A stretch of 64,000 nt of DNA from Stegostoma tigrinum (GCF_030684315.1 NC_081384.1:13616818-13680817), one strand, 5' to 3'. Shown: positions 28,168-56,748, counted from the first letter of the stretch. The notes: generated by a model not told the origin, from the sequence alone. Numbers and translations are program-made.

Positions 28168-28260
28168 GGTGTGTGTCCTGTGTGCTGCAGGAGGTCAGAG
28201 ATTGACGACTGGGAGATCACATCAGTCAGTTTGAGAGACGTGAGAGAAGAAGCAGAGACA

Positions 28261-28845
28261 ATGCTGAGCTATCGGTCTTTCCACCCTTCACACCTGTGTC
28301 AGCAGCCTGTGTACACATTGGGGTCTGTTGAACACAGGCTCTGGGTGCCGCTTCAATGTCATGTGTGGAAAGAGGTGGAAGAAGCGAGAAAGAGCATCAA
28401 CTTCATGAATCGAGTCCTTGAGGAGCTGACAGCAGAATTTTTCAGGGAAGTACCAAGAAGTCAGGATAACAAACCTGACACTATCGGAGAAGGTAAAGGA
28501 CAATCCTTGGAGAAGGATGGAGATGGGTTTTCTGTGTCCCTGAATGTGCAGCACTTCTCTCCAGAAGAACTGAGGGTGAAAGTATTTGGAAGAAAAGTGC
28601 TGGTGACAGGAAAACACGAGGCGAAATGTGATGATGGCAGCGGCTCTTACAGCTACAAATATGAAGAGTTCAGGAGAGAATTCCAGCTGCCAGAGGATGT
28701 CGATGCTGAAGCTCTTCAATGCTGTTTGTCACAGGATGGTCGGTTAAATGTTCAAGCCCCAAGCCTGGCATTGCCAGCTGTGAATGAACGGACCGTCCCC
28801 ATCAACATCACCTCAGACAGCAACCACTCCCCGGCTCATTCCTGA
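28261..28845 (+). CDS. hsp30: HSP30-like copy 7, C-terminally frameshifted (194 aa)
   Basis: Same 2-bp deletion as copy 6. Confidence 0.8.
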   Translation: MLSYRSFHPSHLCQQPVYTLGSVEHRLWVPLQCHVWKEVEEARKSINFMNRVLEELTAEFFREVPRSQDNKPDTIGEGKGQSLEKDGDGFSVSLNVQHFSPEELRVKVFGRKVLVTGKHEAKCDDGSGSYSYKYEEFRREFQLPEDVDAEALQCCLSQDGRLNVQAPSLALPAVNERTVPINITSDSNHSPAHS

Positions 28846-31070: not shown

Positions 31071-32489
31071 TGAGGCACCAGGCTGTATACCACTTCTTTA
31101 CAGGATGGTGGAAAGTACGTTTACTGTGCGTTAAATGATCTTGTGCCTCTCGGGGAGTGTGAGGAAAGCTGACTGCATCAAAAGCAGCTTTTATCAAGTT
31201 TCTGTTCCCATAATATTAATCATACTGTTCAATAGGAATAAACAATAGGAACAGCAGCAGGCAATTTAAACAACAAACTCACTTCTCTATTTCATGTGAT
31301 CACCAATGATTTAACCATAGACTGAAGAAATCCTGCCTCCCTCTAAACAATCACTCCACTTTTCAACCAGAACCTGTATATGGGGAAGAGATAACTAACT
31401 TGTAATTCTCTAAAAAGAGACAATTGCCCGGATATGAACCTCAGATGGGCAAGACCTTAATTTAAAACTGTGTTCCCGACACCAGGACTTCTGACCGATG
31501 TGACACATCCTTCCAGCGTCAACCATGTCAAGACCCTCTGTCTCTAATGTTTCAATTAACGACCCTGATTCCACAGCATCAGGAAGGTGTCTAATACTTC
31601 CTTCCACATCACTCAGCAATTTGCTTCCATCAGAACATTTACTGCATCACACTGACATTCATACAACTGTTTGGCTGTACAGAGAGAAATATTTACAATA
31701 TGAATGGTCCGCAATTGGATGTGGGCATTGCCACATGACATCCATTAGATATTCTTTAAATGCAACGCAAGAGTCACAGAGGCTTTCAACGATGTTGAAA
31801 CTAAAATATAATGAGTTATTCTTCTTCTGTTGTGCTGTTTCTTGTGGACTGGGATGTATGTTGTGAATGCAAAGAGGGAGAAAATCCAAAGGCTTCTCAC
31901 AAACTGGAATTGGACATGTACTTGCAAAAGAAGAATTTGCAGAGCTTCGGGGAAAAAACATTGGAGGTGCAAGGAATTGGTCAGCGCTTTGAAAGAGCTG
32001 AATCTGGCCTGGTGGACTGATTGGCCTCATCTGTTGCTCTGCAGATCTAAAGCTGTTGTTGAGCAGTCTTCGTTTTATAAAGTGCAGATCCTACATCAAA
32101 CACCTTATCAGCAACAGGGTTTTATAACATTGAAGGACACAACAACTTCATGTTTAAGTCTTTCGCTTTTCAAACTCTTTCTTCATCATCAGCAGGGAGG
32201 TATTCTCCTTCAGGACAGATTCAACAGTTTGTTCAAAAAGTACAAATCTGGTTGCATTTCACTCCACCTCAAGCTGAAAAGTAGCACTTCAATCTCAAGG
32301 AAGTAATTGGAAACAGTAATGTTGCAAAACACAAACACTCCATCTTCATTCTGTATTGACATGATTGACTCTTTTAAATATTTAAAACCTTTTCTCTTTT
32401 CACAATCCTCACTTTCCTGCACAGACTCTGCTTTCCGCTCAGCTGTCAATCATTAACATTGCTCCTCCCAGCTGTGCAGTCACTGCCTG

Positions 32490-32662
32490 TGAACATTCCG
32501 GAAATCCCTGGAAATCCTCCAGTCGGTATCACTGTGTCGATTCATTCCTGTTTCAAGTTAGCCTGAGATGAGACGTCATTTATTTTCAGCTGACATGTGA
32601 TAAACCCAGCAAAGTTTAGCTCATTCTGGAAATGTCTGGATTCCTGGCAGTAGAATATTTAA
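32490..32662 (+). promoter_or_regulatory. HSE/HSE/TATA promoter, copy 8
   Basis: Same motifs; TATTTAA. Confidence 0.8.
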
Positions 32663-32755
32663 GGTGTGTGTCCTGTGTGCTGCAGGAGGTCAGAGACTGA
32701 CGACTGGGAGATCACTTCAGTCAGTTTGAGAGACGTGAGAGAAGAAGCAGAGACA

Positions 32756-33427
32756 ATGCTGAGCTATCGGTCTTTCCACCCTTCACACCTGTGTCAGCAG
32801 CCTGTGTACACATTGGGGTCTGTTGAACACAGGCTCTGGGAGCCGCTTCAATGTCATGTGTGGAAACAGGTGGAAGCAGCGAGAAAGAGCATGAACTTCA
32901 TGAATCGAGTCCTTGAGGAGCTGACAGCAGGACTATTCGAGGGAATTCCAAGAAGTCAGGATAACAAACCTGACAGTGTCAGAGAAGGTAAAGGACAATC
33001 CTTGGAGAAGGATGGAGATGGGTTTTCTGTGTCCCTGAATGTGCAGCACTTCTCTCCAGAAGAACTGAGGGTGAAAGTATTTGGAAGAAAAGTGCTGGTG
33101 ACAGGAAAACACGAGAAGAAATGTGATGATGGCAGCGGCTCTTACAGCTACAAATATGAAGAGTTCAGGAGAGAATTCCAGCTGCCAGAGGATGTCGATG
33201 CTGAAGCTCTTCAATGCTGTTTGTCACAGGATGGTCGGTTGAAGGTTCAAGCCCCAAGCCTGGCATTGCCAGCTGTGAATGAACGGACAGTCCCCATCAA
33301 CATCACCTCAGACATGACAACCACTCCACGGCTCATCCCTGACCAGGAGGCAAAGAAACAGGAGAGTGGGAGGGATGTGGGGAACAAGAAAGAAGGAGAA
33401 CCTACGGACAGCAAAGTCTTTGTTTGA
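32756..33427 (+). CDS. hsp30: HSP30-like copy 8 (223 aa)
   Basis: Intact ORF ending ..EPTDSKVFV. Confidence 0.92.
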   Translation: MLSYRSFHPSHLCQQPVYTLGSVEHRLWEPLQCHVWKQVEAARKSMNFMNRVLEELTAGLFEGIPRSQDNKPDSVREGKGQSLEKDGDGFSVSLNVQHFSPEELRVKVFGRKVLVTGKHEKKCDDGSGSYSYKYEEFRREFQLPEDVDAEALQCCLSQDGRLKVQAPSLALPAVNERTVPINITSDMTTTPRLIPDQEAKKQESGRDVGNKKEGEPTDSKVFV

Positions 33428-35071
33428 ATGAACTTTTGAAGATGGAAGAATTGTTCAAAAGCAACAATGAATTATTGTCAATGTGTGATAAAAATAAAAA
33501 TTTTGTTAAATTAGTTGCTTCAAACTTAGACAACAGTACCGTGCAATTATCAGAAATGGTGTGGATTATTTATATATGTATGTGTATTGGACCAATAAAT
33601 AATTTTGTAAGTTAACAATCCTGATTTTGCCATCTTCCTTGATGGAAACAAAAGTGAAACATTACTGATAATCTTCACGCAAACTTACATTATTCTCAGT
33701 TAAGGGGAAGAGACCTTTTATGTGGGATTAAATTAATACACAGGGCATAAAATCACACTGTCCAGATCTGCCTAAATGAAAATTAAAAGACAATAGGTGC
33801 TGGGGTAGGCCTTTCGGCCCATCGAGCCAGCACCACCATTCATTATGATCATGGCTGATCATCCACAAGCAGTATCCTAACATAGACAACAGACAATTGG
33901 TGCTGGAGTAGGCCATTCAGCCCTTAAGTAGATATAGTAACAGAGTCATGAAGGTATGCAGCACAGAAACATACCCTTCAGTCCAACTTGACCGTGCCCA
34001 CCAGGTATGCCAAATGTAACTTGTCCCATTTGCCTGCGTTTGGTCCATATCTCGCTCACCTTTTCCTATTCATGCACATTTCCAAATATCTTTAAATATT
34101 GTAACTGTACCTGCACCTACCACTCTCTCTGGCAGCTCATTCCATTCTCACACTACCCGCTGTGTGGAAACATTGTCCCTCAGGCCTCCTTTAAATACTT
34201 AGCATCTCCCCTTGAACTTATGCCCTCTAGCTTTGCACGCCCCTACCCTTGCACTAAGACCTTTGCGATTCACCGTACCTATGCCTCTCATGGTATTATA
34301 AACCTTCATAAGTTCACCCCTCAGCTTATTAAGTATAGTTCTGGTCAACACACAAGCAGAATGATTTTCGTCCTTTGGAGAGGGTCCAGAAAAGTTTTAT
34401 CAGGATGCTGCTTTATATGGGGGATATTAGCCATGAGGAAAAGTTGGATCTATTAGGTTTGTTTTCAGTGGAATACAGGTAGTTGAGGTTTATATGATTG
34501 TGAATGCCATGAATAGAATGTAAAGTTTGAGAATGTTTTCACAGAGTGGAGGCACGAATTAACTGGGGATACAGGTTCAAGATGAGAGGGCGGATGTTTA
34601 TAAGATTTGTGCGATGCAGGTTTATCACATAAATGGTGGGGAGTGCCCAGAACATGCTGCCACAGGAGGTGGTGGATGCGGACACAACAGCAGCATTCGA
34701 GAAACACCTGAACGAGTACATGCATAGGACATGAATAGAGGATACAGATCCTGTCAGTAACGAGACCGAGAGTGTGGAAGGGCAAAAGGTGTCAGCACAT
34801 GCTTGGAGGGGTGAGGGGCAGGGTCCTGTGCTGCATTGTCCGATGTTCATCCAAAGCTCCTGGAAAAAAATGTCCTCGCCTATTGAACATCTCTCTCCAA
34901 CTCAAGCCTCCTGTGAAAGCAACATCTTGTAAATTTTTCCTGCATCCAGGTCAGTTAAAGATATCAATCTAATGTTCAGGGACCATCATTGAAGAGCTTT
35001 GTTCACCTTGATTGCAGAGATATTCCCCATAGATTGACAAATCATCAGCAACAAGGGCTTGACTTCCAACT

Positions 35072-36061
35072 TCCTCAGGGTAGTGTGCTGAACCCAAGCA
35101 TCTTCAGCTGCTTCATCAATGACCTTCCCTCCATTGTCAGGTCAGAAGTGGGAATGTTCGCCAACACGTTGGTTGCACAATGTTCAGCACCACTCGCGAC
35201 TCCTCAGGTACTGAAACAGTCCATGTTCAAACGCAACAAGATCTGGACAATATCCAGGCTTGGCTTGTCAAATGGCAAGTGATAATCGTGCCACACAAAT
35301 GCCAGCCTATCACCATCACCAATGAGAGACAATCTATCCACGGGGCCTTTATATTAATGGTGTTACCGTGGCTTATCCCCCACTATCAATAACCTGGGGC
35401 TTATCATTGACCAGAAACTCAACTAGACTCACCACATAAACACAATGGCGACAAGAGTATGTCAGAAGCTAGGAACTCCATGGCGAAAAACTCACCTCCT
35501 GACTCGTCAAAGCCTGTCCACCATCGACAAGGCACGAGTCAGGAGTGTGATGGAATACTCGCCACTTGCCTGGTTGAATGCAGCTCCAACAACACACGGG
35601 AAGTCTGACACCCTCCAGGACAAATCAACCCACTTGATTGGTACCACATCCACAAGCATCCATTCCCTCCAAACCCCACACTCAGTACCAGCAGTGTATA
35701 ATATCTGCAAGATCTACTGCAGAATTCCACCAAAGATCCTTAGGCAGCACCTTCCAAATGCATGATCACTTCCATCTAGAAGGACACGGGCAGCAGACAT
35801 ACGGGGATACCATCATCAGCAAGTTCCCCTCCTAGTCACTTACCATCCTGACTTGAAACTATATTGGTGTTCCTTCACTGTCAGTGGGCCACAATCCCAG
35901 AATTGTCTCCCAATTGGCACAGTGGGTGAATCCACAGCAGGTCGTGCACAGAGGTTCACGAAGGCAGCTCACCACCACCTTCTGAAGGGAAACGAGGTAC
36001 AGGCAAGAAATGCTGACCAGACCGCCATTCCCAACGCCCACAAAAGAGTGGAAAAAATAAC
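35072..36061 (+). mobile_element. CR1/L2-group LINE fragment, spacer B8
   Basis: Paralog of 21126-22115. Confidence 0.8.
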
Positions 36062-37447
36062 TGAGGCACCAGGCTGTACTCCACCTGGTTACTGGATGGG
36101 GGAAAGCACATTCATCGCGGGGTAAATGGCCGTGTGCCTATCCTGGTGTGTGTGCAAAACTGATTGCATCAAAAACAGCTTTTATCAAGTTTCTGTTTCG
36201 ATAATACTAACTGTCCAATTCTAGTGATCGTCAAGAACAGGACTGAGGATAATGGACTGAAGACATCCTGCCTCCCGGATAACTGACACTCCCTGTTTAA
36301 GCCCTAACCTGGACACGGACCTGAATAATTCAATGTTGCAGCTTCCTTTGCTCATTGCAGGAGAAACAGCAAACTGATAGCCCTCTGAAAGGAGACAAAA
36401 CCCCTGATCTGACCCTTAAATGCCTGAGCCCTTAGTATTAAACTGTGCTCCTGATGCCAAGATTTCTGAGCGATGTGACACATCCTTTCAGCATTGACAA
36501 TGACAAGACCCTCTGAATCTAATGTATCAATAGACAGCCATTATTCCCAAGCATCAGGAAGGTGTCTCATGCTTCCCTCCACGTCACCCAGCAGTTTGCT
36601 TCCATCAGTACATTTACTGCATCACACTGACTGCAGATAAGTGGTTTGCTGAACAGTGAGAAATATTAAAAATGTCCCCAAACTGATGTGAGCAATGCAA
36701 CAAGACATCCGTTAGAAATTCATTAAATGCTGCGCACAAGTCACAGAGGCTGAACTTATGTTGAACCTAAAATATAGTTGGTTATTCTTCTACTTGTGAA
36801 CTGAAAAGGAAGCTGGAAATGCAAAGAGGGAGCAGATCCAAAGGCATCTCACCAACTGGAATTTGTCATTGTACTTGCAAAAGGAGAATTCGCAAAGCTT
36901 TGGGAAAAGAGCACGGGAGGTGCACGGGAGCATTGGAAGAGAGTAATCTGGCCTGGTGGACGGATTGGCCTCATTTGCTGCTCTGCAGATCTAAAGCAAT
37001 TGTTGCGCATTCTGCATTTTATGAAGTGTAAATCCCAAATCAAACACATTATGGGCAAATTGGGTTTTGAAGATTTGAAGAACAATGGAAGAACGCAGCA
37101 GCTTCATTTCTAAATATTTAATTTTCGAATTTACTTTTTATTTATCAGCAAAGAGCTACTTGCCTTGAGGACGGATTGAACACTTTACTGAAGTGAAATA
37201 AACCTATTTTCGTTTTAATCCATCTCAAAATGATAAATAGTATATCAATCTCAAGGATGCCACTGAGAACAGGAATGATAGAAAAGCCAAACACAGTCTT
37301 TTCATTCTGACAGGACATGAGTTAATGTTTCAAACAATTAAAACCTTTTCTCTGTTTCAACAATCCTCACTTTCCTGCACAGACTCTGCTTTCCGCTCAG
37401 CTGTCAATCATTAACATTGCTCCTCCCAGCTGTGCAGCCACTGCCTG

Positions 37448-37620
37448 TGAACATTCCGGAAATCCCTGGAAATCCTCCAGTGGGAATCACTGAGTCGAGT
37501 CATTCCTGTTTAAAGGAAGCCTGAGATGAGACGTCATTTATTTTCAGCTCACATGTGATAAACCCAGCAAAGTTTAGCTCATTCTGGAAATGTCTGGATT
37601 CCTGGCAATAGAATATATAA
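37448..37620 (+). promoter_or_regulatory. HSE/HSE/TATA promoter, copy 9
   Basis: Same motifs; TATATAA. Confidence 0.8.
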
Positions 37621-37713
37621 CGTGTGTGTCCTGTGTGCTGCAGGAGGTCAGAGACTGACGACTGGGAGATCACATCAGTCAGTTTGAGAGACGTGAGAGA
37701 AGAAGCAGAGACA

Positions 37714-38298
37714 ATGCTGAGCTATCGGTCTTTCCACCCTTCACGCCTGTGTCAGCAGCCTGTGTACACTTTGGGGTCTGTTGAACACAGGCTCTGGGAG
37801 CCGCTTCAATGTCATGTGTGGAAACAGGTGGAAGAAGCGAGAAGGAGCATGAACTTCATGAATCGAGTCCTTGAGGAGCTGACAGCAGAACTTTTCGAGG
37901 GAATTCCAAGAAGTCAGGATAACAAACCTGACAGTGTCAGAAAAGGTAAAGGACAATCCTTGGAGAAGGATGTCGATGGGTTTTCTGTGTCCCTGAATGT
38001 GCAGCACTTCTCTCCAGAAGAACTGAGGGTGAAAGTATTTGGAAGAAAAGTGCTGGTGACAGGAAAACACGAGAAGAAATGTGATGATGGCAGCGGCTCT
38101 TACAGCTACAAATATGAAGAGTTCAGGAGAGAATTCCAGCTGCCAGCGGATGTCGATGCTGAAGCTCTTCAATGCTGTTTGTCACAGGATGGTCGGTTAA
38201 ATGTTCAAGCCCCAAGCCTGGCATTGCCAGCTGTGAATGAACGGACCGTCCCCATCAACATCACCTCAGACAGCAACCACTCCCCGGCTCATTCCTGA
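37714..38298 (+). CDS. hsp30: HSP30-like copy 9, C-terminally frameshifted (194 aa)
   Basis: Same 2-bp deletion as copies 6 and 7. Confidence 0.8.
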   Translation: MLSYRSFHPSRLCQQPVYTLGSVEHRLWEPLQCHVWKQVEEARRSMNFMNRVLEELTAELFEGIPRSQDNKPDSVRKGKGQSLEKDVDGFSVSLNVQHFSPEELRVKVFGRKVLVTGKHEKKCDDGSGSYSYKYEEFRREFQLPADVDAEALQCCLSQDGRLNVQAPSLALPAVNERTVPINITSDSNHSPAHS

Positions 38299-39550
38299 CC
38301 AAGAGGCAAAGAAACAGGAGAGTGGGAGGGATGTGGGGAACAAGAAAGATGGAGAACATATGGACAACAAAGACTTTGATTGAATGAACGTTTTAATGTA
38401 TAGGAATTATTGCAACGCAGCAATCAATATCTGTCAATGTACACTGAAAATAAAAATTTTGTTGTATTAATTGTCTTGAGCATAGATAAGGGTACTGTGC
38501 TATTATAAACATTCATGTGGAGTATTTATAAAGAAGTATGCATATTGGATCAATAAATAGTTTTGAAAGTTAATAATCCTGATTGTGCCCTCTTATTTGA
38601 TCAAAACAAAAGTAATACATTACTGATAATCTTCATTCAAAATTACATTATTTTCAGTTACGGTAAAGAGACCTTCTATGTGGGATTAAATTAAAACACA
38701 GGGCAGAAAATCAGTTGGTCGAGATTTGCCTCAATCGAAACTCAGACTCATATAGTCATCGGGTCATGAAGTTATGCAGCACAGAAACATATCCTTTGGT
38801 CCAACCTGACCGTGCCCACCAGGTATGCCAAACGTAACTCGTCCCATTTGCCTGCGTTTGGTCCATATCTCGCTCGCCTTTTCCTATTCACGCACATCTC
38901 CAAATATCTTTAAATATTCTAACTGTACCTGCACCTACACGTTCTCTGGCAGCTCATTCCATTCTCACACTACCCGCTGTGTGGAAACATTGTCCCTCAG
39001 GTCCCTTTTAAAAAGTTCCGGTTGCCGCTTGAACCTATGCTCTCTAGCTTTGGGCTCCCCAACCCTTGGAATAAGATCTTGGCGATCCACCTTTTCTATG
39101 CCTGTCATGATTTTATAAACCTTCGTAAGGTCATCCCTCAGCATATTGCGTACAGTTCTTGTCACCACACCTGCAGAAGGACTCAGATACTATGGAGAGG
39201 ATACAGAAAGGTTTTACCAGGATTTTACCTTGGATGGGCAATTTTAGCCCAGAGTGGAAGGACAAAATGTGTCAGCACAGGTTTGGAGAGCTGAGGGGCA
39301 GGGTCCTGTGCTGCATTATGCGCTGTTCATACGGAGCTCGTGGAAACAAAAAGTCCTCGCCTATCGAGCCTCGCCCTACAACTCAATCCTCTCATGTTAG
39401 CAACATACTTCCAAATTTTTTCTGTCTCGAGTTCAGTCAAAGATATTAAATTCATGTTGAGGGACCATCATTGAAGAGCTTTGTGCACTTCAATCGCACA
39501 GATGTTTGCAGATTTACAAATCATCAGCAACAAGGGCTTGTCATCCAACT

Positions 39551-40523
39551 CCCTCAGGGTATGTCTTCAGCCCAACCATCATCAGCTGCTTCATCAATGA
39601 CCTTCCCCGCCATTGTCAGATCAGAAGTGGGAATGTTCACCTACGATTGCGCAGTTTTCAGCACGGTTTGCGATTTCTCAGATACTGAAGCAGGCACATT
39701 CAAATGCAGCAAGATCTGGACAATCTGGCTTGGCCTGTCAAATGGCAAGTGACATTTGTGCAACACAAATGCCAGCCTATCACCATCACCAATAAGAGCC
39801 ATTGTAACCACTGCTCCTTAACATTCAATGGTGGTGCCATGACCTATACCTCACTATCAACATCCTGAGACTTATCATTGACCAGAAACTCAACTTGATT
39901 CACCACATAAACACAGTGGTTACAACAGCAAGCCAGAAGCTGGGAATGCTATGGCAGGAAACTCTCTCCTGACTCCTCAAAGCCTGTCCACCATCTACAA
40001 GGCACGAGTCAGGGTTGTGATGGAATGCCCTCCACTTGCCTGGATGAGTCCGGCTCCAAAAACACATGAGAAGTTTGACACCATCCAGCACAAAGCAGCG
40101 CACTCGATTCGCTCCACATCCATAAGCACCCACTCCATCCAACCCCCACGCTCAGTACCAGCAGTGTCTAATATCTGCAGGATGTGCTGCAGAAATTCAC
40201 CAGAGATCCTCAGACAGCACTTTTCAAACACACATCCACTTCCATCCAAGGGCAGCAGACAAATGGGAACACCACCAACTTCAACTTCCCCTCCCAGCCC
40301 CTCATCATCCTGACTTGGAAATATATCGGTGTTCCTTCACTGTCATTGGATCAAAATCCCAGAATTGTCTCCCAAGTGGTCGTGTGGGGGAAACCATGGC
40401 AGGTGGTGCGCAGACGTTCAAGAAGGCATCCCACCACCACCTTCTCAACTGAAACCAGGTACGGGCAAGAAATGCTGGCCAGACTGCCACTCCCACAGCC
40501 CACAAAAGAGTGGAAAATATAAC
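39551..40523 (+). mobile_element. CR1/L2-group LINE fragment, spacer A9
   Basis: Paralog of 11668-12640. Confidence 0.8.
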
Positions 40524-41941
40524 TGAGGCACCAGGCTGTATACCACTTCTTTACTGGATGGTGGAAAGTACGTTTACTGTGCGTTAAATGATCTTGTGCC
40601 TCTCGGGGAGTGTGAGGAAAGCTGACTGCATCAAAAGCAGCTTTTATCAAGTTTCTGTTCCCATAATATTAATCATACTATTCAATAGGAATAAACAATA
40701 GGAACAGCAGCAGGCAATTTAAACAACAAACTCACTTCTCTATTTCATGTGATCACCAATGATTTAACCATAGACTGAAGAAATCCTGCCTCCCTCTAAA
40801 CAATCACTCCCCTTTTCAACCAGAACCTGTATATGGGGAAGAGATAACTAACTTGTAATTCTCTAAAAAGAGACAATTGCCCGGATAAGAACCTCAGATG
40901 GGCAAGACCTTAATTTAAAACTGTGTTCCTGACACCAGGACTTCTGACCGATGTGACACATCCTTCCAGCATCAACCATGTCAAGACCCTCTGTCTCTAA
41001 TGTTTCAATTAACAACCCTGATTCCACAGCATCAGGAAGGTGTCTAATACTTCCTTCCACATCACTCAGCAATTTGCTTCCATCAGAACATTTACTGCAT
41101 CACACTGACATTCATACAAGTGTTTGGCTGTACAGAGAGAAATATTTACAATATGAATGGTCCGCAATTGGATGTGGGCATTGCCACATGACATCCATTA
41201 GACATTCTTTAAATGCAACGCAAGAGTCACAGAGACTTTCAACGATGTTGAAACTAAAATATAATGAGGAATTCTTCTTCTGTTGTGCTGTTTCTTGTGG
41301 ACTGGGATGTATGTTGTGAATGCAAAGAGGGAGACGATCCAAAGGCTTCTCACAAACTGGAATTGGACATGTACTTGCAAAAGAAGAATTTGCAGAGCTT
41401 CGGGGAAAAAACATTGGAGGTGCAAGGAATTGGACAGCGCTTTGAAAGAGCTGAATCTGGTCTGGTGGACTGATTGGCCTCATCTGTTGCTCTGCAGATC
41501 TAAAGCTGTTGTTGAGCATTCTTCGTTTTATAAAGTGCAGATCCTACATCAAACACCTTATCACAACAGGGTTTTATAACATTGAAGGACACAACAACTT
41601 CATGTTTAAGTCTTTCGCTTTTCAAACTCTTTCTTCATCATCAGCAGGGAGGTATTCTCCTTCAGGACAGATTCAACAGTTTGTTCAAAAAGTACAAATC
41701 TAGTTGCATTTCACTCCACCTCAAGCTGAAAAGTAGCACTTCAATCTCAAGGAAGTAATTGGAAAGAGTAATGTTGCAAAACACAAACACTGCATCTTCA
41801 TTCTGTATTGACATGATTGACTCTTTTACATATTTAAAAACGTTTCGCTTTTCACAATCCTCACTTTCCTGCACAGACTCTGCTTTCCGCTCAGCTGTCA
41901 TTCATTAACATTGCTCCTCCCAGCTGTGCAGTCACTGCCTG

Positions 41942-42114
41942 TGAACATTCCGGAAATCCCTGGAAATCCTCCAGTCGGTATCACTGTGTCGATTCATTCC
42001 TGTTTCAAGTTAGCCTGAGATGAGACGTCATTTATTTTCAGCTGACATGTGATAAACCCAGCAAAGTTTAGCTCATTCTGGAAATGTCTGGATTCCTGGC
42101 AGTAGAATATTTAA
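41942..42114 (+). promoter_or_regulatory. HSE/HSE/TATA promoter, copy 10
   Basis: Same motifs; TATTTAA. Confidence 0.8.
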
Positions 42115-42207
42115 GGTGTTTGTCCTGTGTGCTGCAGGAGGTCAGAGACTGACGACTGGGAGATCACTTCAGTCAGTTTGAGAGACGTGAGAGAAGAAGC
42201 AGAGACA

Positions 42208-42879
42208 ATGCTGAGCTATCGGTCTTTCCACCCTTCACACCTGTGTCAGCAGCCTGTGTACACATTGGGGTCTGTTGAACACAGGCTCTGGGAGCCGCTT
42301 CAATGTCATGTGTGGAAAGAGGTGGAAGAAGCGAGAAAGAGCATGAACTTCATGAATCGAGTCCTTGAGGAGCTGACAGCAGAACTTTTCGAGGGAATTC
42401 CAAGAAGTCAGGATAACAAACCTGACAGTGTCAGAGAAGGTAAAGGACAATCCTTGGAGAAGGATGGAGATGGGTTTTCTGTGTCCCTGAATGTGCAGCA
42501 CTTCTCTCCAGAAGAACTGAGGGTGAAAGTATTTGGAAGAAAAGTGCTGGTGACAGGAAAACACGAGAAGAAATGTGATGATGGCAGCAGCTCTTACAGC
42601 TACAAATATGAAGTGTTCAGGAGAGAATTCCAGCTGCCAGAGGATGTCGATGCTGAAGCTCTTCAATGCTGTTTGTCACAGGATGGTCGGTTAAAGGTTC
42701 AAGCCCCAAGCCTGGCATTGCCAGCTGTGAATGAACGGACCGTGCCCATCAACATCACCTCAGACACGACAACCTCTCCCCGGCTCATCCCTGACCAGGA
42801 GGCAAAGAAACAGGAGAGTGGGAGGGATGTGGGGAACAAGAAAGAAGGAGAACCTACGGACAGCAAAGTCTTTGTTTGA
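42208..42879 (+). CDS. hsp30: HSP30-like copy 10 (223 aa)
   Basis: Intact ORF ending ..EPTDSKVFV. Confidence 0.92.
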   Translation: MLSYRSFHPSHLCQQPVYTLGSVEHRLWEPLQCHVWKEVEEARKSMNFMNRVLEELTAELFEGIPRSQDNKPDSVREGKGQSLEKDGDGFSVSLNVQHFSPEELRVKVFGRKVLVTGKHEKKCDDGSSSYSYKYEVFRREFQLPEDVDAEALQCCLSQDGRLKVQAPSLALPAVNERTVPINITSDTTTSPRLIPDQEAKKQESGRDVGNKKEGEPTDSKVFV

Positions 42880-44524
42880 ATGAACTTTTGAAGATGTAAG
42901 AATTGTTCAAAAGCAACAATGAATTATTGTCAATGTGTGATAAAAATAAAAATTTTGTTAAATTCGTTGCTTCAAACTTAGAAAACAGTACCGTGCAATT
43001 ATCGGAAATGGAGTGGATTATTTATATATGTGTGTGCATTGGACCAATAAATAATTTTGTAAGTTAACAATCCTGATTTTGCCATCTTCCTTGATGGAAA
43101 CAAAAGTGAAACATTACTGATAATCTTCACGCAAACTTACATTATTCTCAGTTAAGGGGAAGAGACCTTTTATGTGGGATTAAATTAATACACAGGGCAT
43201 AAAATCACACTGTCCAGATCTGCCTAAATGAAAATTAATAGACAATAGGTGCTGGGGTAGGCCTTTCGGCCCATCGAGCCAGCACCACCATTCATTATGA
43301 TCATGGCTGATCATCCACAAACAGTATCCTAACATAGACAATAGACAATTGGTGCTGGAGTAGGCCATTCAGCCCTTAAGTAGATATAGTAACAGAGTCA
43401 TGAAGGTATGCGGCACAGAAACATACCCTTCAGTCCAACTTGACCGTGCCCACCAGGTATGCCAAATGTAACTTGCCCCATTTGCCTGCGTTTGGTCCAT
43501 ATCTCGCTCACCTTTTCCTATTCATGCACATTTCCAAATATCTTTAAATATTGTAACTGTACCTGCACCTACCACTCTCTCTGGCAGCTCATTCCATTCT
43601 CACACTACCCGCTGTGTGGAAACATTGTCCCTCAGGCCTCCTTTAAATACTTAGCATCTCCCCTTGAACTTATGCCCTCTAGCTTTGCACGCCCCTACCC
43701 TTGCACTAAGATCTTTGCGATTCACCGTACCTATGCCTCTCATGATTTTATAAACCTTCATAAGTTCACCCCTCAGCTTATTAAATATAGTTCTGGTCAC
43801 CACACAAGCAGAATGATTTTCGTGCTTTGGAGAGGGTCCAGAAAAGTTTTATCAGGATGCTGCTTTATATGGGGGATATTAGCCATGAGGAAAAGTTGGA
43901 TCTATTAGGTTTGTTTTCAGTAGAATACAGGTAGTTGAGGTTTATATGATTGTGAATGCCATGAATAGAATGTAAAGTTTGAGAATGTTTTCACAGAGTG
44001 GAGGCACGAATTAACTGGGGATACAGGTTCAAGATGAGAGGGCGGATGTTTATAAGATTTGTGCGATGCAGGTTTATCACATAAATGGTGGGGAATGCCC
44101 AGAACATGCTGCCACAGGAGGTGGTGGATGCAGACACAACAGCAGCATTCGAGAAACACCTGAACGAGTACATGCATAGGACATGAATAGAGGATACAGA
44201 TCCTGTCAGTAACGAGACCGAGAGTGTGGAAGGGCAAAAGGTGTCAGCACATGCTTGGAGGGGTGAGGGGCAGGGTCCTGTGCTGCATTGTCCGATGTTC
44301 ATCCAAAGCTCCTGGATAAAAAATGTCCTCGCCTATTGAACATCTCTCTACAACTCAAGCCTCCTGTGAAAGCAACATCTTGTAAATTTTTCCTGCATCC
44401 AGGTCAGTTAAAGATATCAATCTAATGTTCAGGGACCATCATTGAAGAGCTTTGTTCACCTTGATTGCAGAGATATTCCCCATAGATTGACAAATCATCA
44501 GCAACAAGGGCTTGACTTCCAACT

Positions 44525-45514
44525 TCCTCAGGGTAGTGTGCTGAACCCAAGCATCTTCAGTTGCTTCATCAATGACCTTCCCTCCATTGTCAGGTCAGAA
44601 GTGGGAATGTACGCCAACACATTGGTTGCACAATGTTCAGCACCACTCGCGACTCCTCAGGTACTGAAACAGTCCATGTTCAAACGCAACAAGATCTGGA
44701 CAATATCCAGGCTTGGCTTGTCAAATGGCAAGTGATAATCGCGCCACAAAAATGCCAGCCTATCACCATCACCAATAAGAGACAATCTATCCACTGGGCC
44801 TTTATATTAATGGTGTTACCATGGCTTATCCCCCACTATCAATAACCTGGGGCTTATCATTGACCAGAAACTCAACTAGACTCACCACATAAACACAATG
44901 GCTACAAGAGTATGTCAGAAGCTAGGAACTCCATGGCGAAAAACTCACCTCCTGACTCGTCAAAGCCTGTCCACCATCGACAAGGCACGAGTCAGGAGTG
45001 TGATGGAATACTCGCCACTTGCCTGGTTGAATGCAGCTCCAACAACACACGGGAAGTCTGACACCCTCCAGGACAAAGCAGCCCACTTGATTGGTACCAC
45101 ATCCACAAGCATCCATTGCCTCCAAATCCCACACTCAGTACCAGCAGTGTGTAATATCTGCAAGATCTACTGCAGAATTCCACCAAAGATCCTTAGGCAG
45201 CACCTTCCAAATGCATGATCACTTCCACCTAGAAGGACACGGGCAGCAGACATACGGGGATACCATCATCAGCAAGTTCCCCTCCTAGTCACTTACCATC
45301 CTGACTTGGAACTATATTGGTGTTCCTTCACTGTCAGTGGGCCACAATCCCAGAATTGTCTCCCAATTGGCACTGGGGGTGAATTCACAGCAGGTGGTGC
45401 ACAGAGGTTCACGAAGGCAGCTCACCACCACCTTCTGAAGGGAAATGAGGTACAGGCAAGAAATGCTGACCAGACCGCCATTCCCAACGCCCACAAAAGA
45501 GTGGAAAAAATAAC
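44525..45514 (+). mobile_element. CR1/L2-group LINE fragment, spacer B10
   Basis: Paralog of 21126-22115. Confidence 0.8.
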
Positions 45515-46456
45515 TGAGGCACCAGGCTCTACACCACCTGGTTACTGGATTGTGGAAAGCACATTCATCACGGGGTAAATGGCCTTGTGCCTATCCTGGT
45601 GTGTGTGCAAAACTGATTGCATCAAAAACAGCTTTTATCAAGTTTCTGTTTCGATAATACTAACTGTCCAATTCTAGTGATCGTAAAGAACAGGACTGAG
45701 GATAATGGACTGAAGAAATCCTGCCTCCCGGATAACTGACACTCCCTGTTTAAGCCCTAACCTGGACATGGACCTGAATAATTCAATGTTGCAGCTTCCT
45801 TTGCTCATTACAGGAGAAACAGCAAACTGATAGCCCTCTGAAAGGAGACAAAACACCTGATCTGATCCTTAGATGCCTGAGCCCTTAGTATTAAACTGTG
45901 CTCCTGATGCCAAGATTTCTGAGCGATGTGACACATCCTTTCAACATTGACAATGACAGGTGCCTCATGCTTCCCTCCACGTCAACCAGCACTTTGCTGC
46001 CATCAGTACATTTACTGCATCACACTGACTGCAAATAAGTGGTTTGCTGAACAGTGAGAAATATTAAAAATGTCCCCAAACAGATGTGAGCAATGCAACA
46101 AGACATCCGTTAGAAATTCATTAAATGCTGCGCACAAGTCGCAGAGGCTGAACTTATGTTGAACCTAAAATATAGTTGGTTATTCTTCTACTTGTGAACT
46201 GAAAAGGAAGCTGGAAATGCAAAGAGGGAGCAGATCCAAAGGCATCTCACCAACTGGAATTTGTCATTGTACTTGCAAAAGGAGAATTCGCAAAGCTTTG
46301 GGGAAAGAGCACGGGAGGTGCACGGGAGCATTGGAAGAGAGTAATCTGGCCTGGTAGACAGATTGGCCTCATTTGCTGCTCTGCAGATCTAAAGCAATTG
46401 TTGCGCATTCTGCATTTTATGAAGTGGAAATCCCAAATCAAACACATTATGGGCAA

Positions 46457-46655
46457 GATAATAAAATGTGAGGCTGGATGAACACAGCAGGCCAAGTAGC
46501 ATCTCAGGAGCACAAAAGCTGACGTTTCGGGCCTAGACCCTTCATCAGGGTCCTGATGTTGTGCTCCTGAGATGCTGCTTGGCCTGCTGTGTTCATCCAG
46601 CCTCACATTTTATTATCTTGGAATTCTCCAGCATCTACAGTTCCCATTATCTCTG
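46457..46655. mobile_element. Young palindromic mini-Penelope (pLTR-only) insertion
   Basis: Near-perfect inverted arms (~46454-46515 and 46559-46620). 13-bp TSD acattatggg(c/a)aa at 46444-46456 and 46656-46668. Empty sites in B5 (~23100) and B8 (~37050). Confidence 0.85.
46521..46548 (-). ncRNA. Minimal hammerhead ribozyme core motif of Penelope pLTR
   Basis: Minus strand reads CUGAUGA-aGGG-ucuagg-CCC-GAAAC-GUC: conserved core boxes, stem II and GUC cleavage triplet. Stem I pairing is not established. Confidence 0.6.
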
Positions 46656-47057
46656 ACATTATGGGAAAATTGGGTTTTGAAGATTTGAAGAACAATTGAA
46701 GAACGCAGCAGCTTCACTTCTAAATGTTTAATTTTAGAATTTACTTTTTATTTATCAGCAAAGAGCTACTTGCCTTGAGGACGGATTGAACACTTTACTG
46801 AAGTGAAATAAACCTATTTTCGTTTTAATCCATCTCAAAATGATAAATAGTATATCAATCTCAAGGATGCCACTGAGAACAGGAATGATAGAAAAACCAA
46901 ACACAGTCTTTTCATTCTGACAGGACATGAGTTAATGTTTCAAACAATTAAAACCTTTTCTCTGTTTTAACAATCCTCACTTTCCTGCACAGACTCTACT
47001 TTCCGCTCAGCTGTCAATCATTAACATTGCTCCTCCCAGCTGTGCAGCCACTGCCTG

Positions 47058-47230
47058 TGAGCATTCCGGAAACCTCTGGAATTCCTCCAGTCGGGATCAC
47101 TGAGTTGAGTCATTCCTGTTTAAAGGAAGCCTGAGATGAGGTGTCATTTATTTTCAGCTCACATGTGATCAACCCAGCAAAGTTTAGCTCATTCTGGAAA
47201 TGTCTGGATTCCTGGCAGTAGAATATATAA
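47058..47230 (+). promoter_or_regulatory. Promoter of copy 11, partly mutated
   Basis: Distal HSE GAA to GAG; gagacgtca to gaggtgtca; proximal HSE and TATATAA intact. Confidence 0.7.
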
Positions 47231-47323
47231 GGTGTGTGTCCTGTGTGCTGCAGGAGATCAGAGACTGACGACTGGGAGATCACATCAGTCAGTTTGAGAG
47301 ACGTGAGAGAAGAAGCAGAGACA

Positions 47324-48007
47324 ATGCTGAGCTATCGGTCTTTCCACCCTTCACACCTGTGTCAGCAGCCTGTGTACACATTGGGGTCTGTTGAACACAG
47401 GCTCTGGGAGCCGCTTCAATGTCATGTGTGGAAACAAGTGGAAGAAGCGAGAAAGAGCATGAACTTCATGAATCAAGTCCTTGAGGAGCTGACAGCAGAA
47501 TTTTTCAGGGAAGTACCAAAAATTCAAGATAACAAACCTGACACCCTCGGAGAAGGTAAAGTATGATCCTTGGAGAAGGATGGAGATGGGTTTTCTGTGT
47601 CCCTGAATGTGCAGCACTTCTCCCCAGAAGAACTGAGGGTGAACGTATTTGGAAGAAAAGTGCTGGTGACAGGAAAACACAAGAAGAAATGTGATGATGA
47701 CAGCGGCTCTTACAGCTTCAAATATGAAGAGTTCAGGAGAGAATTCCAGCTGCCAGAGGATGTCGATGCTGAAGCTCTTCAATGCTGTTTGTCGCAGGAT
47801 GGTCGGTTAAAGGTTCAAGCCCCAAGCCTGGCATTGCCAGCTGTGAATGAACGGACCGTCCCCATCAACATCACCTCAGACACGACAGCCACTCCCCGGC
47901 TCATTCCTGACCAAGAGGCAAAGAAACAGGAGAGTGGGAGGGATGTGGGGAACAAGAAAGAAGGAGAACCTACGGACAGCAAAGTCTTTGTTTCAATGAA
48001 TGTTTGA
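47324..48007 (+). pseudogene. hsp30: HSP30-like copy 11 with premature stop
   Basis: In-frame TGA at 47564-47566 before the alpha-crystallin domain; normal stop also changed to TCA. Confidence 0.85.
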
Positions 48008-53333: not shown

Positions 53334-53842
53334 CTCTATAAATTGTCTATAGACTTTAACTGTGTTGAAGAGCACAGCAGCTTAAACTGGAAACATATCT
53401 TCATGCATATAATTTATTTTGAAGATGAGGGGACATACTTTTCAGGTGAGAGGAGAAAGATTTAAAAGGATATGAGGGGCACTTTTTTCTACACACATTG
53501 TGTTCGTGTGTGGAATGTTGAGGCAAATGGGTCAAGTGCAGGCAGGTGAGACTAGTTTAGTTTAAGATTATAGGTTGAAGTGGATTGATCGGGCCAAAGA
53601 GTATGTTTCCATACTGTGTGATTCTTTGACTCAAGTGGTTGAGTTACATCACATTGAGCCCTCTTTCTAAGAGTAAAAGGAAGCAAGTGCTGAAATTTTG
53701 CATTTCATAATATTTTTGTTTTATTTAGTGGACAAACTGAATCGGGGATATTACTGCCTCAAAATGTTTATTTTCATCATGCATTTGTTTTAATTTTATG
53801 TATTTTTATCACACATGCAAATAACATGACAGTGATCAATTC

Positions 53843-53932
53843 AAGATAATAAAATGTGAGGCTGGATGAACACAGCAGGCCAAGCAGCATCTTAGGAGCA
53901 CAAAAGCTGACGTTTCGGGCCTAGACCCTTCA
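53843..53932 (-). mobile_element. Penelope pLTR fragment
   Basis: Nearly identical to the left arm of 46457-46655. Confidence 0.75.
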
Positions 53933-54056
53933 ATTCCCTAAGATTAGGAAAACAAGATTCGGCATTACAATATCCATAAATTTTCTAAATTCACAATAAA
54001 TTGGTATTCAATGTCTATTTTCCCTTTCCTGTTCCCCACTTCCTTCCCACTGTCCT

Positions 54057-54167
54057 CACAGACAGTAAGAACTTTCTGACGTAGGTCCTGACCCAAAACA
54101 TCAAATTTCCTGTTCCACTGATGCTGCCTGAGCTGCTGTGTGCCTCCAGCTCCACACTGTGTTATTT
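54057..54167 (+). mobile_element. Old Penelope pLTR fragment inserted into the 3' end of hsp30 copy 12
   Basis: TSD cttcccact(g/c)tcct at 54043-54056 and 54168-54181. It supplies the stop codon of copy 12. Confidence 0.75.
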
Positions 54168-54785
54168 CTTCCCACTCTCCTGTTTCTTTGTCTCTTGGTC
54201 AGGAATGAGCCGAGGAGTGGCTGTCGTGTCTGAGGTGATGTTGATGGGCACGGTCTGTTCATTCACAGCTGGCAATGCCAGGCTTGGGGCTTGAACCTTT
54301 AACCGACCATCCTGTGACAAACAGCATCGAAGAGCTTCAGCATCGACATCCTCTGGCAGCTGGAATTCTCTCCTGAACTCTTCATATTTGTAGCTGGAAG
54401 AGCCACTGCCATCATCACATTTCTTCTTGTGTTTTCCTGTCACCAGCACTTTTCTTCCAAATACTTTCACCCTCAGTTCTTCTGGGGAGAAGTGCTGCAC
54501 ATTCAGGAACACAGAAAACCCATCTCCATCCTTCTCCAAGGATTGTCCTTTACCTTCTCCGATACTGTCAGGTTTGTTATCCTGAATTTTTGGTACTTCC
54601 CTGAAAAATTCTGCTGTCAGCTCCTCAAGGACTTGATTCATGAAGTCCATGCTCTTTCTCGCTTCTTCCACCTGTTTCCACACATGACATTGAAGCGGCT
54701 CCCAGAGCCTGTGTTCAACAGACCCCAATGTGTACACAGGCTGCTGACACAGGTGTGAAGGATGGAAAGACCGATAGCTCAGCAT
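54162..54785 (-). CDS. hsp30: Inverted HSP30-like copy 12 (207 aa, tail shortened by TE insertion)
   Basis: Open frame with complete alpha-crystallin domain, ending QESGKK* inside the TE. Confidence 0.8.
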   Translation of the reverse strand: MLSYRSFHPSHLCQQPVYTLGSVEHRLWEPLQCHVWKQVEEARKSMDFMNQVLEELTAEFFREVPKIQDNKPDSIGEGKGQSLEKDGDGFSVFLNVQHFSPEELRVKVFGRKVLVTGKHKKKCDDGSGSSSYKYEEFRREFQLPEDVDAEALRCCLSQDGRLKVQAPSLALPAVNEQTVPINITSDTTATPRLIPDQETKKQESGKK

Positions 54786-54878
54786 TGTCTCTGCTTCTTC
54801 TCTCACGTCTCTCAAACTGACTGATGTGATCTCCCAGTCGTCAGTCTCTGATCTGCTGCAGCACACAGGACACACACC

Positions 54879-54918
54879 TTATATATTCTACTGCCAGGAA
54901 TCCAGACATTTCCAGAAT
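54879..54918 (-). promoter_or_regulatory. TATA + proximal HSE of copy 12
   Basis: Reverse complement of the array core promoter; near-identity stops at ~54926. Confidence 0.75.
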
Positions 54919-54926
54919 GAGCTAAA

Positions 54927-55635
54927 GCATTTTTTGATTTAGTTTGTTTTGTTATTGTCACATATACCTAGGTACACTGAAGAGTTTTGCTTTGCGTACA
55001 ATACAGGCAGATCATACTATACAAAGTGCATTAGGGTAATAGAACACAGCCAGAAATACCATGTTACAGCTGCAGAGTTGGTGTACAGGTAGTAAGATCA
55101 GCATTAAGTTTGAAATTTGAGAGGCCCATTCAAGAACCTAATAACAACAGGGAAGAAGCTGTTCTGAATCTGTTGGCATATGTTTAAGCAGTTGTGATTT
55201 CTTCCCAATGGAAGAGGTTGGAAGAGATTATAAATAGGCAGGGAGGGAACATTGATGATGTTGGCTGCCTTCTCAAAGCAGCAAGAAGTATGGATGGGGT
55301 CAATGGACAGAAGGTTGGCTTGTGTGACGGACTGGGCTGTGTTCACAATTCTCTGAAGTTTCTTACAGTTCTGGGCAAAGCAGTCGCCGTACCAACACAT
55401 GGTGCATCCTGGTAGAATGTTTTGTACGAAGCTTCTATAAAAATTAGTAAAAGTCTTTACGACGTGCTGAAATTCCTTCATCTCTTGTGGAAGTAGAGGC
55501 GTTGTGCTTTCTTGACAATAGCGTAAAGGTGGGTGGTGCAGGAAAGATTGTTGGTAATCTTCACTCCTAGGAGCTTTACAGTCTCAACCATCTGCCTCAG
55601 CACCACTGATGAAGACAGGGGCAGGCCCTCCTCCT
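54927..55635 (-). mobile_element. Rex1/Babar LINE 3' fragment inserted in the promoter of copy 12
   Basis: ORFs LGVKITNNLS..KKAQRLYF and TNFYRS..CWYG.C....KKLQRIVNTAQ..LPLGR..NSFFP..IRFLN are typical of the Rex1/Babar C-terminus. Confidence 0.75.
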
Positions 55636-56748
55636 TGCTTCCTTTGCTCTGTTTATCATGTCTGTGCTTAAAATAGATGAAATGTCTCAGCTTGTTTATT
55701 TTAAACAGGAACAAATTAACTCAGTGACACACACTGTCAGATCCAGCTTTTTCTGGAATCTATTCAGCACAGATGGGAGGAGTGGCATCAACTTTTGAGA
55801 TATCAATTCTTGTAAATTAAGAACTTCGACTGGAAATTGACATTCAGGCCAGTTTGTTGTGAAATCTATTACATTTCCAAAACTATCCCCTACAGAGCCA
55901 TTAATTCATTTGCTTTGAGCACATGTTTCCGTGCAATGTGTTGCCAAAATGGCTCATTATTATACAATTTTACAACCGTGATTACTTTTATTAATGGCTT
56001 CACTTTGCGCACAGTAACTTAGCATTAATTTCCATAAAACATACAAACTTGAAACAGTATTTGTATGGTGGAGGAACTATAACATTCACTTAATTAAATT
56101 CAAGTTAAGACTTCCACACTAGCTGTGGCACTGCTTACTGCTGTCGGTAGATAGTCTATGTAGAAATGGTAGTACTTAAACTGTCCTCAAAATAATCAGG
56201 GAAGGGAATCAGGAAATGAAGAACTGAAACAATCGGAGCACTTAGACTAGCGGATAATGATGACTCCATGTATGTGCCTGTCACAGTTATTTTTAAATAT
56301 TAGACGAGATTAATAAATAGATGCGGAGAGTTCAGAAATCAGAGTTGAGCAAATCTGCAGCGTCACGGTACTACCAATAAAAGTCAAGTCAACTCATTTA
56401 TTGGTTAATTATTAGTGTATGGCATGCTGTCAGCTGTTGGAAAGAGCTGCTGACTCAGGGCATTAAGTTAGAAAGTGCAGACTATAAACTAGGCAGAACA
56501 TTCTGCTTCTGATTGATATCAATACAACTCACAGACCAATATCTGTATTCCTGCTGATGTAATCCGCTGAGACAGCAGTCCCAACAATGAAGACTTCAAA
56601 ATAACAATAATCTAAGGATGATTCTTGAAGACTTTTAATGATAGGGCTGTGACTATTTCGTTTGGCAGCTTGCTCCATTGTGGAATTGTCCTTGGGGGAG
56701 AAGAGAAGAGTTGATACACTGCATTAGAAACAAATTGTGTCCTTGCAG

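What the first reader, a model, noticed from the sequence alone, without database searches (positions are those of the whole stretch)
53760..55790. Inverted hsp30 copy whose homogenised segment is fenced exactly by two transposon insertions
Seen: 54168-54926 (CDS, 5' UTR, TATA, proximal HSE) is nearly identical to the array copies and shares variants with copy 11 (NQVLEE, EVPKIQD, KHKKK, TTATP). Directly beyond the pLTR insertion, the rest of the CDS tail (54010-54056) is visibly diverged. Directly beyond the Rex/Babar insertion, the distal promoter (55641-55785) is only loosely alignable. The two TSD copies also differ (ctctcc inside, ctgtcc outside). Inference: an old inverted paralog is repeatedly overwritten by gene conversion from the array, with conversion tracts stopped by TE heterology. 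It keeps an open frame but lacks the distal HSE.
Basis: partly seen in the sequence, partly recalled or inferred. Interest (0 to 1): 0.8.

Follow-up and report, generated by a model that had tools for sequence, protein, structure and literature searches.

The report
Gene-converted inverted shark hsp30 copy
An old, flipped copy of a shark heat-shock gene has been kept almost identical to its neighbouring tandem copies by DNA copying between them, and two transposons sit at the edges of the copied block but explain only a little of where it ends; this is a tidy example of a known process.

Summary
The observation largely holds. The inverted hsp30 (CDS 54785-54162) is 97% identical to array copy 11 over 54168-54926, between a 5'-truncated LINE and a 111-nt Penelope-type terminal repeat that supplies its stop codon. 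Its flanks are about 15-30% diverged. Conversion is well supported. A related species holds the orthologous flanks and the outer junctions of both transposons as single-copy contigs (5-8% diverged), so the locus predates that split. Yet the copy nests inside this genome's own array clade (100/98), sister to copy 11 (99/97), and shares 10 derived residues with the array that all 7 whale-shark proteins lack. The 'fenced exactly by transposons' claim is only partly supported. Transposon-free copy 1 steps at the same 5' site (-142), and array copies step at +638 to +685, from about 20 nt past the Penelope site (+617). The transposons cut off about 40 nt (5') and 22-36 nt (3') of a block that the whole family homogenises. 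The distal heat-shock element is displaced and half-decayed, not absent. Repeated events and the direction of transfer are not shown. New member of a known kind; moderate-to-low interest.

The parts
54162..54785 (-). Intronless hsp30-type small heat-shock CDS, 207 aa; the last codon (K207) and the stop lie inside the Penelope-type insert
   Evidence: (PF00011, E=1.8e-18, residues 85-182)
54168..54926 (-). Homogenised block (-141..+617): proximal HSE, TATA, 5' UTR and CDS codons 1-206
   Evidence: 23/757 differences to copy 11, 21/757 to the array majority
54899..54918 (-). Proximal heat-shock element (nGAAn inverted repeats), the same in the inverted copy and copies 1, 2, 4 and 11; -141..-102 has 0-1 differences of 40 to each copy
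   Evidence: the HSE consensus is recalled
54879..54885 (-). TATA-like box
   Evidence: read from the sequence
54057..54167 (-). 111-nt Penelope-type terminal-repeat fragment that supplies the stop codon; 83-91% identical to genomic relatives; outer junction shared with organism B
   Evidence: (X11 record 1); 72-79% similar to repeats beside the GIY-YIG ORF at 57896-58585 and elsewhere in the window
54168..54181 (-). Inner TSD copy (14 nt)
54043..54056 (-). Outer TSD copy, 1 difference from the inner copy
54024..54056 (-). Cut-off former CDS tail (+604..+637), 5/33 different from copy 11; homology to the array ends here
54927..55641 (-). 5'-truncated LINE 3' fragment with an (AAATC)n-like tail, Rex1/Babar-like (label recalled); 77-78% identical to 7 genomic relatives; 5' junction shared with organism B
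   Evidence: (X11 record 7, X12 record 14)
55642..55759 (-). Displaced distal promoter, about 70% identical to the array; distal HSE remnant at 55758-55751
53842..53932 (+). Second, younger Penelope-type terminal repeat downstream of the gene; 97.8% identical to 46454-46544; absent from organism B
   Evidence: X11 record 1 skips 53836-53929
47183..47987 (+). Array copy 11 (ATG 47324), nearest neighbour and closest relative; in-frame TGA at 47564-47566
2836..47987 (+). Tandem array of 11 hsp30 copies (ATG at 3017, 5773, 9819, 14323, 18811, 23767, 28261, 32756, 37714, 42208, 47324)
2755..3735 (+). Copy 1, the transposon-free control: old, diverged distal promoter (27/103) and the same 5' step at -142

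Best explanation
The inverted gene is an old paralogue whose flanks have drifted far from the array. SHOWN: it already carried both transposons before this species split from organism B. SHOWN, direction unknown: after that split its interior exchanged sequence with the tandem array by non-allelic gene conversion, most closely with neighbouring copy 11. INFERRED: conversion in this family acts on a core of about -141/-181 to about +640 (proximal HSE, TATA, 5' UTR, CDS) in every copy, with or without transposons; selection keeps that core similar enough to pair. The two transposons lie just inside the natural edges, at the nearest tolerated sites (8 nt upstream of the proximal HSE; in the dispensable C-terminal tail). 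INFERRED: they cut off about 40 nt at the 5' side and 22-36 nt at the 3' side, which then drifted by about as much as the transposons themselves. So they trim the block and do not define it. The gene keeps an open frame, a proximal HSE and a TATA box; whether it is expressed is untested.
For: Organism B single-copy contigs (depth 8-13) bridge the Penelope outer junction (53930-54112) and the LINE 5' junction (55591-56386, 55591-55929). Flank divergence is 11/202, 9/183, 62/796, 24/339 and 39/485. Protein tree of 30 rows: the inverted copy lies inside copies 3-11 (100/98), sister to copy 11 (99/97); grouping it with the 207-aa whale-shark proteins is rejected (p-AU 0.00017). Of 15 tagged sites, 10 are shared with the array, absent from 7 of 7 whale-shark proteins and in under 10% of 27 Hemiscylliidae proteins; 0 are shared with whale shark only; 5 are private. 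At 7 of the 12 listed interior sites where all organism-B depth differs, the inverted copy's letter is shared by 2-11 array copies. The LINE is 22-23% from its relatives, while interior pS is 3.8-8.2% to copies 3-11. Controls: copy 1 changes at -142; array copies change at +638..+685. The cut-off pieces match transposon age: 9/40 (JC 0.27) against LINE 0.27, and 5/33 (0.17) against Penelope 0.11. Over the same stretches array copies 2-11 differ from the majority by 0-2/40, and all 11 copies by 8/385.
Against: The core evolves slowly even between species: over 54187-54534 the inverted copy differs from organism B's collapsed contig at 11/348, the same as from its own array majority, so high identity alone proves nothing. 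pS to copy 11 (8/132, 6.1%) overlaps the A-B flank divergence (5-8%). Organism B's own inverted interior was not seen, and no listed B contig bridges an inner junction. Contigs hide single-copy alleles: in organism A run X4, the inverted copy's private letters at 54256, 54397 and 54405 appear in no contig. The whale-shark 207-aa proteins are annotated as isoforms and may be chimeras of tandem copies. The run test found no significant tract. The cut-off pieces are short (33 and 40 nt), and the 3' one also lost coding constraint.
Confidence: 0.7

Rival explanations
1. One reading: the two transposon insertions themselves set both edges; without them conversion would cover the distal promoter and the 3' region.
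For: The 5' change-point interval (-148..-143) touches the LINE junction, and the best 3' change point (+616) touches the Penelope junction. Copies 2-11 are homogeneous to about -181 while the inverted copy is not. Divergence of the outer promoter (JC 0.27-0.40) is near the LINE's age (0.27). The inner TSD keeps the ancestral-type AAG codon, where 10 of 11 array copies have AGG.
Against: Transposon-free copy 1 steps at -142 and has a similarly old distal promoter (JC 0.32). Transposon-free copies step at +638..+685. Homology of the inverted copy ends at about +637, the array-wide edge, not at the insert.
Confidence: 0.15
2. A single post-split replacement of the interior, or transfer from the inverted copy into the array, rather than repeated overwriting from the array.
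For: No significant mosaic tract in 11 of 11 pairs; one well-supported sister, copy 11; 7 private changes have accumulated.
Against: Alleles are shared with different partners: S74 with copies 4, 6, 8-10; a silent site with copy 2; another with copy 10. Only 1 of the 7 private changes lies in the first 418 of 759 nt (p=0.035, break chosen after seeing the data).
Confidence: 0.09
3. Purifying selection alone keeps the interior similar, with no conversion.
For: The core is only about 2-5% different between species in conserved parts (2/121, 5/235, 11/348, 5/109). The edges coincide with the HSE and the new stop codon.
Against: Selection cannot give an old locus 10 lineage-specific derived residues shared with the array. 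pS of 4-8% is far below outer-promoter divergence of about 31% and LINE divergence of 22%.
Confidence: 0.04
4. Assembly artefact: array reads were polished into the inverted locus.
For: Three private interior letters were not seen in contigs of a second organism-A sample.
Against: The interior has 7 private changes and matches no array copy (best 97%). The listed flank contigs of that sample match at 0 differences (records 16, 20, 23). Contigs drop single-copy variants.
Confidence: 0.02

Closest known systems
Concerted evolution of dipteran hsp70 clusters (PMC3071340; 12 of 18 matched passages read)
   Same: Clustered heat-shock genes with tandem and inverted copies. Conversion homogenises the CDS and 5' UTR, identity decays with distance from the CDS, and 3' UTRs diverge. 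That paper also reports Mariner fragments near 3' UTRs.
   Different: Here a vertebrate small HSP (hsp30). One transposon lies inside the old CDS and donates the stop. Both insertions are dated against a second species.
Disruption of paralogue conversion by transposon insertions and large indels (PMC3924837; 4 passages read)
   Same: The review states that conversion continues until pairing is disrupted by substitutions, TE insertions or other large indels; the cut-off pieces here fit that.
   Different: Conversion did not stop: it went on in the 759 nt between the two insertions, and most of the boundary is shared with transposon-free copies.
TE insertions in Drosophila Hsp70 promoters (PMC2793543; abstract only)
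   Same: [quoted passage not shown]
   Different: Different gene family and elements; conversion edges are not mentioned in the abstract.
Elasmobranch hsp30C-like / HSPB11-like multigene families
   Same: Pfam HSP20 domain; several near-identical copies per species; closest named relatives are whale-shark proteins at 85-87%.
   Different: The 207-aa form ends in a transposon-derived stop. Two whale-shark proteins (P0006, P0068) end at the same codon.

Membership tests
HSP20 / hsp30 small heat-shock proteins | Alpha-crystallin domain | tested here: met
   PF00011, 67 bits against cut-off 20.8; 62 homologues at E<=1e-30 among 166 candidates, most named hsp30- or HSPB11-like
HSP20 / hsp30 small heat-shock proteins | Heat-inducible expression of this copy | not testable with these tools
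   HSE and TATA motifs present; no RNA holder listed
Concerted evolution by non-allelic gene conversion | Locus older than the species split | tested here: met
   Single-copy organism-B contigs cover both flanks and the outer transposon junctions
Concerted evolution by non-allelic gene conversion | Interior groups with same-species paralogues and shares their derived alleles | tested here: met
   Tree support 100/98 and 99/97; 10 shared derived residues; p-AU 0.00017
Concerted evolution by non-allelic gene conversion | Silent divergence inside lower than outside | tested here: met
   pS 3.8-8.2% to copies 3-11 against 31% in the outer promoter; not clearly below A-B flank divergence of 5-8%
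Concerted evolution by non-allelic gene conversion | Discrete, repeated tracts | tested here: inconclusive
   Longest-run permutation p 0.053-0.76 in 11 of 11 pairs
Concerted evolution by non-allelic gene conversion | The orthologue in the sister species is converted to its own array | tested here: inconclusive
   Whale-shark P0006 and P0068 suggest it but may be chimeric models; the interior of B's inverted copy was not seen
TE-bounded conversion domain | Identity step at the insertion sites | tested here: met
   -148 (-148..-143) and +616 (+517..+634)
TE-bounded conversion domain | No such step in paralogues without the insertions | tested here: not met
   Copy 1 steps at -142; array copies step at +638..+685
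TE-bounded conversion domain | Cut-off pieces diverged about as much as the elements | tested here: inconclusive
   JC 0.27 against 0.27, and 0.17 against 0.11, on only 40 and 33 nt
Rex1/Babar LINE | ORF2 C-terminal region and short-repeat 3' tail | tested here: inconclusive
   Relative L006 hits PF09004 and aligns to the insert (E=5e-11); (AAATC)n tail in 7 relatives. The insert itself had no Pfam hit. The link between PF09004 and Rex1/Babar is recalled; no clade tree was built.
Penelope-like element | Terminal repeat associated with a GIY-YIG ORF | tested here: inconclusive
   Related repeats flank a GIY-YIG ORF (22.8 bits, cut-off 22.6); the insert is only a 111-nt fragment

The most novel reading that the evidence does not exclude
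A two-sided, dated natural experiment. Two retroelements older than a shark species split froze the pieces beyond them to within a few bases, while the 759 nt between them kept converting independently in both species. The orthologues then share a transposon-donated stop codon but each carries its own species' array alleles, and the open frame is kept by conversion rather than by selection on this copy.
Probability: 0.35. Interest if true: 0.55.

Novelty: new member of a known kind. Interest (0 to 1): 0.36.

Why it matters
It is a clean vertebrate case of concerted evolution with built-in clocks: two old insertions, one young insertion and a sister species. It shows that a 759-nt block between two insertions is enough for conversion with inverted neighbours, the nearest about 7 kb away. 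It is also a caution: a transposon at an identity step need not be the cause, because transposon-free paralogues step at nearly the same places. In practice, coding-sequence trees or dS would misdate this gene as a recent duplicate of copy 11.

Tried and rejected
(1) The run-length (GENECONV-like) test on 132 polymorphic sites found no significant tract. (2) Expression: no RNA holder listed. Run X5 covers the CDS deeply but is not on record as RNA and consists of contigs, so nothing is concluded from it. (3) Errors of mine: the last block was one base out of register and is discarded (redone); the inner TSD printed was mis-cut (corrected); the +618..640 bin carried one extra base and is superseded. 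(4) The TSD difference as evidence of conversion: rejected, because one change in the non-coding outer copy needs only drift. (5) The 5 nonsynonymous to 2 silent private changes as a sign of pseudogenisation: this matches neutrality (p=0.65), but array copies show the same skew (copy 2 11:1, copy 5 5:0). (6) The similar repeats at 48540-48901 and 52982-53366 as part of an inverted duplication: rejected, they lie in the same genomic orientation. (7) Copy 1's -142..-163 as converted from the LINE tail: by eye it fits the array consensus about as well; undecided. (8) Pfam scans of the LINE fragment: no hit. (9) Earlier scan findings: none. (10) Literature: 8 searches listed no paper on this locus or on a shark hsp30 array. 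One search gave 2 unrelated papers; one search listed 20 of 1,594, none containing hsp30 or hspb11; one search gave 0. PMC8455134 has 0 hits for heat shock, hsp30, hspb and gene conversion in its main text; its supplements were not read. The library lacks most subscription papers.

Full report
Positions are counted with the A of the hsp30 ATG = 0; for the inverted copy -141 = 54926 and +617 = 54168.

LAYOUT. The window holds 11 tandem hsp30 copies on the + strand (ATG 3017 to 47324) and one inverted copy (ATG 54785). A search of the own genome found these 12 as the only close matches among 15. The protein has a Pfam HSP20 domain. Its closest named relatives are whale-shark hsp30C-like proteins at 85-87%, then other carpet sharks at 74-85%. 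Copy 11 has an in-frame stop at codon 81. Copies 6, 7 and 9 share a 2-nt deletion and end at 194 aa.

THE OBSERVATION. 54168-54926 differs from copy 11 at 23/757 and from the other copies at 29-58 sites. At the 3' side a 111-nt insert (54057-54167) lies between two 14-nt TSD copies that differ at one site, and it provides K207 and the stop. Its 5' end matches the start of 17 of 17 genomic relatives that I aligned (taken from 49 matches, 40 of 2039 candidates scored, 83-91% identity). At the 5' side a LINE 3' fragment (54927-~55641) is 77.1-77.9% identical to 7 relatives, which are 77.5-83.0% identical to each other (40 of 8384 candidates scored). The labels Penelope and Rex1/Babar rest on a nearby GIY-YIG ORF, a PF09004 hit in a longer relative and recall. 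The steps are real: 35/112 against 2/148 with change point -148 (-148..-143), and 5/33 against 23/757 (p=0.005). Homology ends at 55759 upstream and about +637 downstream. The distal HSE keeps two perfect units, pushed about 714 nt away.

THE LOCUS IS OLD. Contigs of a related species (organism B, two runs) were laid on 53400-56400. One single-copy contig (depth 11) runs from the 3' flank through the cut-off tail 56 nt into the Penelope insert, and it skips the younger repeat at 53836-53929. Two others (depth 12.5 and 8) run from the outer promoter 50 nt into the LINE. Flank divergence is 5-8% (11/202, 9/183, 62/796, 24/339, 39/485). So the paralogue and both insertions predate the split, which agrees with the elements' own divergence (JC 0.27 and 0.11 against 0.07). 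No listed B contig bridges an inner junction, so in B the link between flanks and CDS is inferred. Two whale-shark proteins stop at the same codon as ours (ESGKG against ESGKK). Relatives of the insert begin with AAA, AGA or GGA before the TAA, which fits a shared insertion. A white-shark protein (P0023) also stops there, which I cannot explain.

THE INTERIOR IS YOUNG. In a 30-row protein tree the inverted copy sits inside copies 3-11 (100/98) as sister to copy 11 (99/97); forcing it with the 207-aa whale-shark proteins is rejected (p-AU 0.00017). The tree used 11 of the other shark proteins fetched; the site table used 27 Hemiscylliidae proteins. Ten residues (H11, S22, H34, Q51, K66, I67, I75, L83, K120, A189) are shared with array copies, absent from all 7 whale-shark proteins (one is partial and lacks the first three sites) and rare in the outgroup; none is shared with whale shark alone; five are private. 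Table 3 lists 14 interior sites (159 rows were hidden). At 12 all B depth differs from the inverted copy; at 7 of those the inverted copy's letter is shared with 2-11 array copies, including a silent site 57 nt from the Penelope junction (54225) and a 5' UTR site (54830). By eye the old fragment at 48354 has B's letter at 54225, so that allele looks derived here. An old locus with lineage-specific array alleles needs sequence exchange; direction is unknown.

LIMITS. The core is slow between species: over 54187-54534 the inverted copy is 11/348 from B's collapsed contig and 11/348 from its own array majority. pS to copy 11 is 6.1%, inside the A-B flank range. Contigs hide single-copy alleles; three private letters were not seen even in organism A's run X4. 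So B's inverted interior is unobserved. The whale-shark models may be chimeric isoforms. The run test found no significant tract, so 'repeated' rests on alleles shared with different partners and on the 3' skew of private changes (1 of 7 in the first 418 nt, p=0.035, post hoc).

ARE THE TRANSPOSONS THE FENCES? The control is copies without them. 5': copy 1 changes at -142 (27/103 against 5/142; interval -145..-136 against copy 11), copy 11 at -153, copy 2 at -187 and copy 3 at -196; copies 4-10 show no significant 5' step against the majority. 3': all 11 copies change at +638..+685, and the inverted copy's own homology ends at +637. So the family homogenises about -141/-181..+640 anyway. What can be credited to the insertions is small. 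In -181..-142 the inverted copy has 9/40 differences, against 0-2/40 for copies 2-11 and 6/40 for copy 1. In the 35 nt from the TSD it has 7/35, against 8/385 for the array. These amounts roughly match the elements' ages. But the LINE sits 8 nt from the proximal HSE, and the tail became non-coding when the insert gave a stop, so survivorship and lost constraint predict the same picture. Reading B's listed differences, its 17 nt next to the LINE equal the array majority; the two changes there arose in this lineage (by eye).

COMPARISON. PMC3924837 (4 passages read) states that conversion goes on until substitutions, TE insertions or large indels disrupt pairing. PMC3071340 (12 of 18 passages read) describes hsp70 clusters with inverted pairs, homogenised CDSs and identity that decays away from the CDS. 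PMC2793543 (abstract) reports Hsp70 promoter insertions clustering away from the start site across 12 genomes. Eight searches listed nothing on this locus or on shark hsp30 arrays (listings only).

VERDICT. Real feature; conversion well supported (about 0.9). Transposons as trimmers of a family-wide block 0.7, as its main cause 0.15. New member of a known kind; interest 0.36.

Noticed in passing
window 47564-47566: Copy 11, the inverted copy's closest relative, has an in-frame TGA at codon 81 that the inverted copy lacks.
   Followed up: partly
window, copies 6, 7 and 9 (ATG 23767, 28261, 37714): A shared 2-nt deletion at codon 187 gives 194-aa proteins with a frameshifted tail.
   Followed up: no
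window 61698-61915 (+): Old hsp30 remnant, 70-73% identical to the array, with stops; it has escaped homogenisation.
   Followed up: partly
window 48354-48441 and 48930-49076 (+): Fragment of a twelfth copy: CDS tail at 87% and a 3' piece at 73% to copy 11; the tail homology also ends near +640.
   Followed up: partly
window 2854-2875 (copy 1, -163..-142): Copy 1 has 6 differences packed into these 22 nt, then 18 identical nt and a 14-nt deletion; BLAST extends the LINE tail of the inverted copy 15 nt into it. Unexplained.
   Followed up: partly
window 9192-43229: The array has higher-order repeats (9192-29282 against 23138-43229 at 96%; further 6-10 kb blocks at 92-95%), pointing to unequal crossing-over.
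   Followed up: no
inverted copy codons 59-85 (about 54610-54530) and array equivalents: Hypervariable, mostly nonsynonymous stretch before the alpha-crystallin domain; copies 1 and 2 differ from copy 11 at 30-31 of 100 nt there. Private changes in many copies are mainly nonsynonymous.
   Followed up: no
proteins P0023 and P0075: A white-shark protein ends at the same codon as the inverted copy (ESGKE), and an epaulette-shark protein ends five residues earlier; shared origin or coincidence is unknown.
   Followed up: no
window 46454-46625 and 9006-9127: Head-to-head pairs of Penelope-type terminal repeats; 46454-46544 is 97.8% identical to the young repeat at 53842-53932.
   Followed up: no
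window 487-1995 and 57844-59623: Penelope-like elements with GIY-YIG-type ORF remnants on both sides of the cluster, 73% identical to each other.
   Followed up: partly
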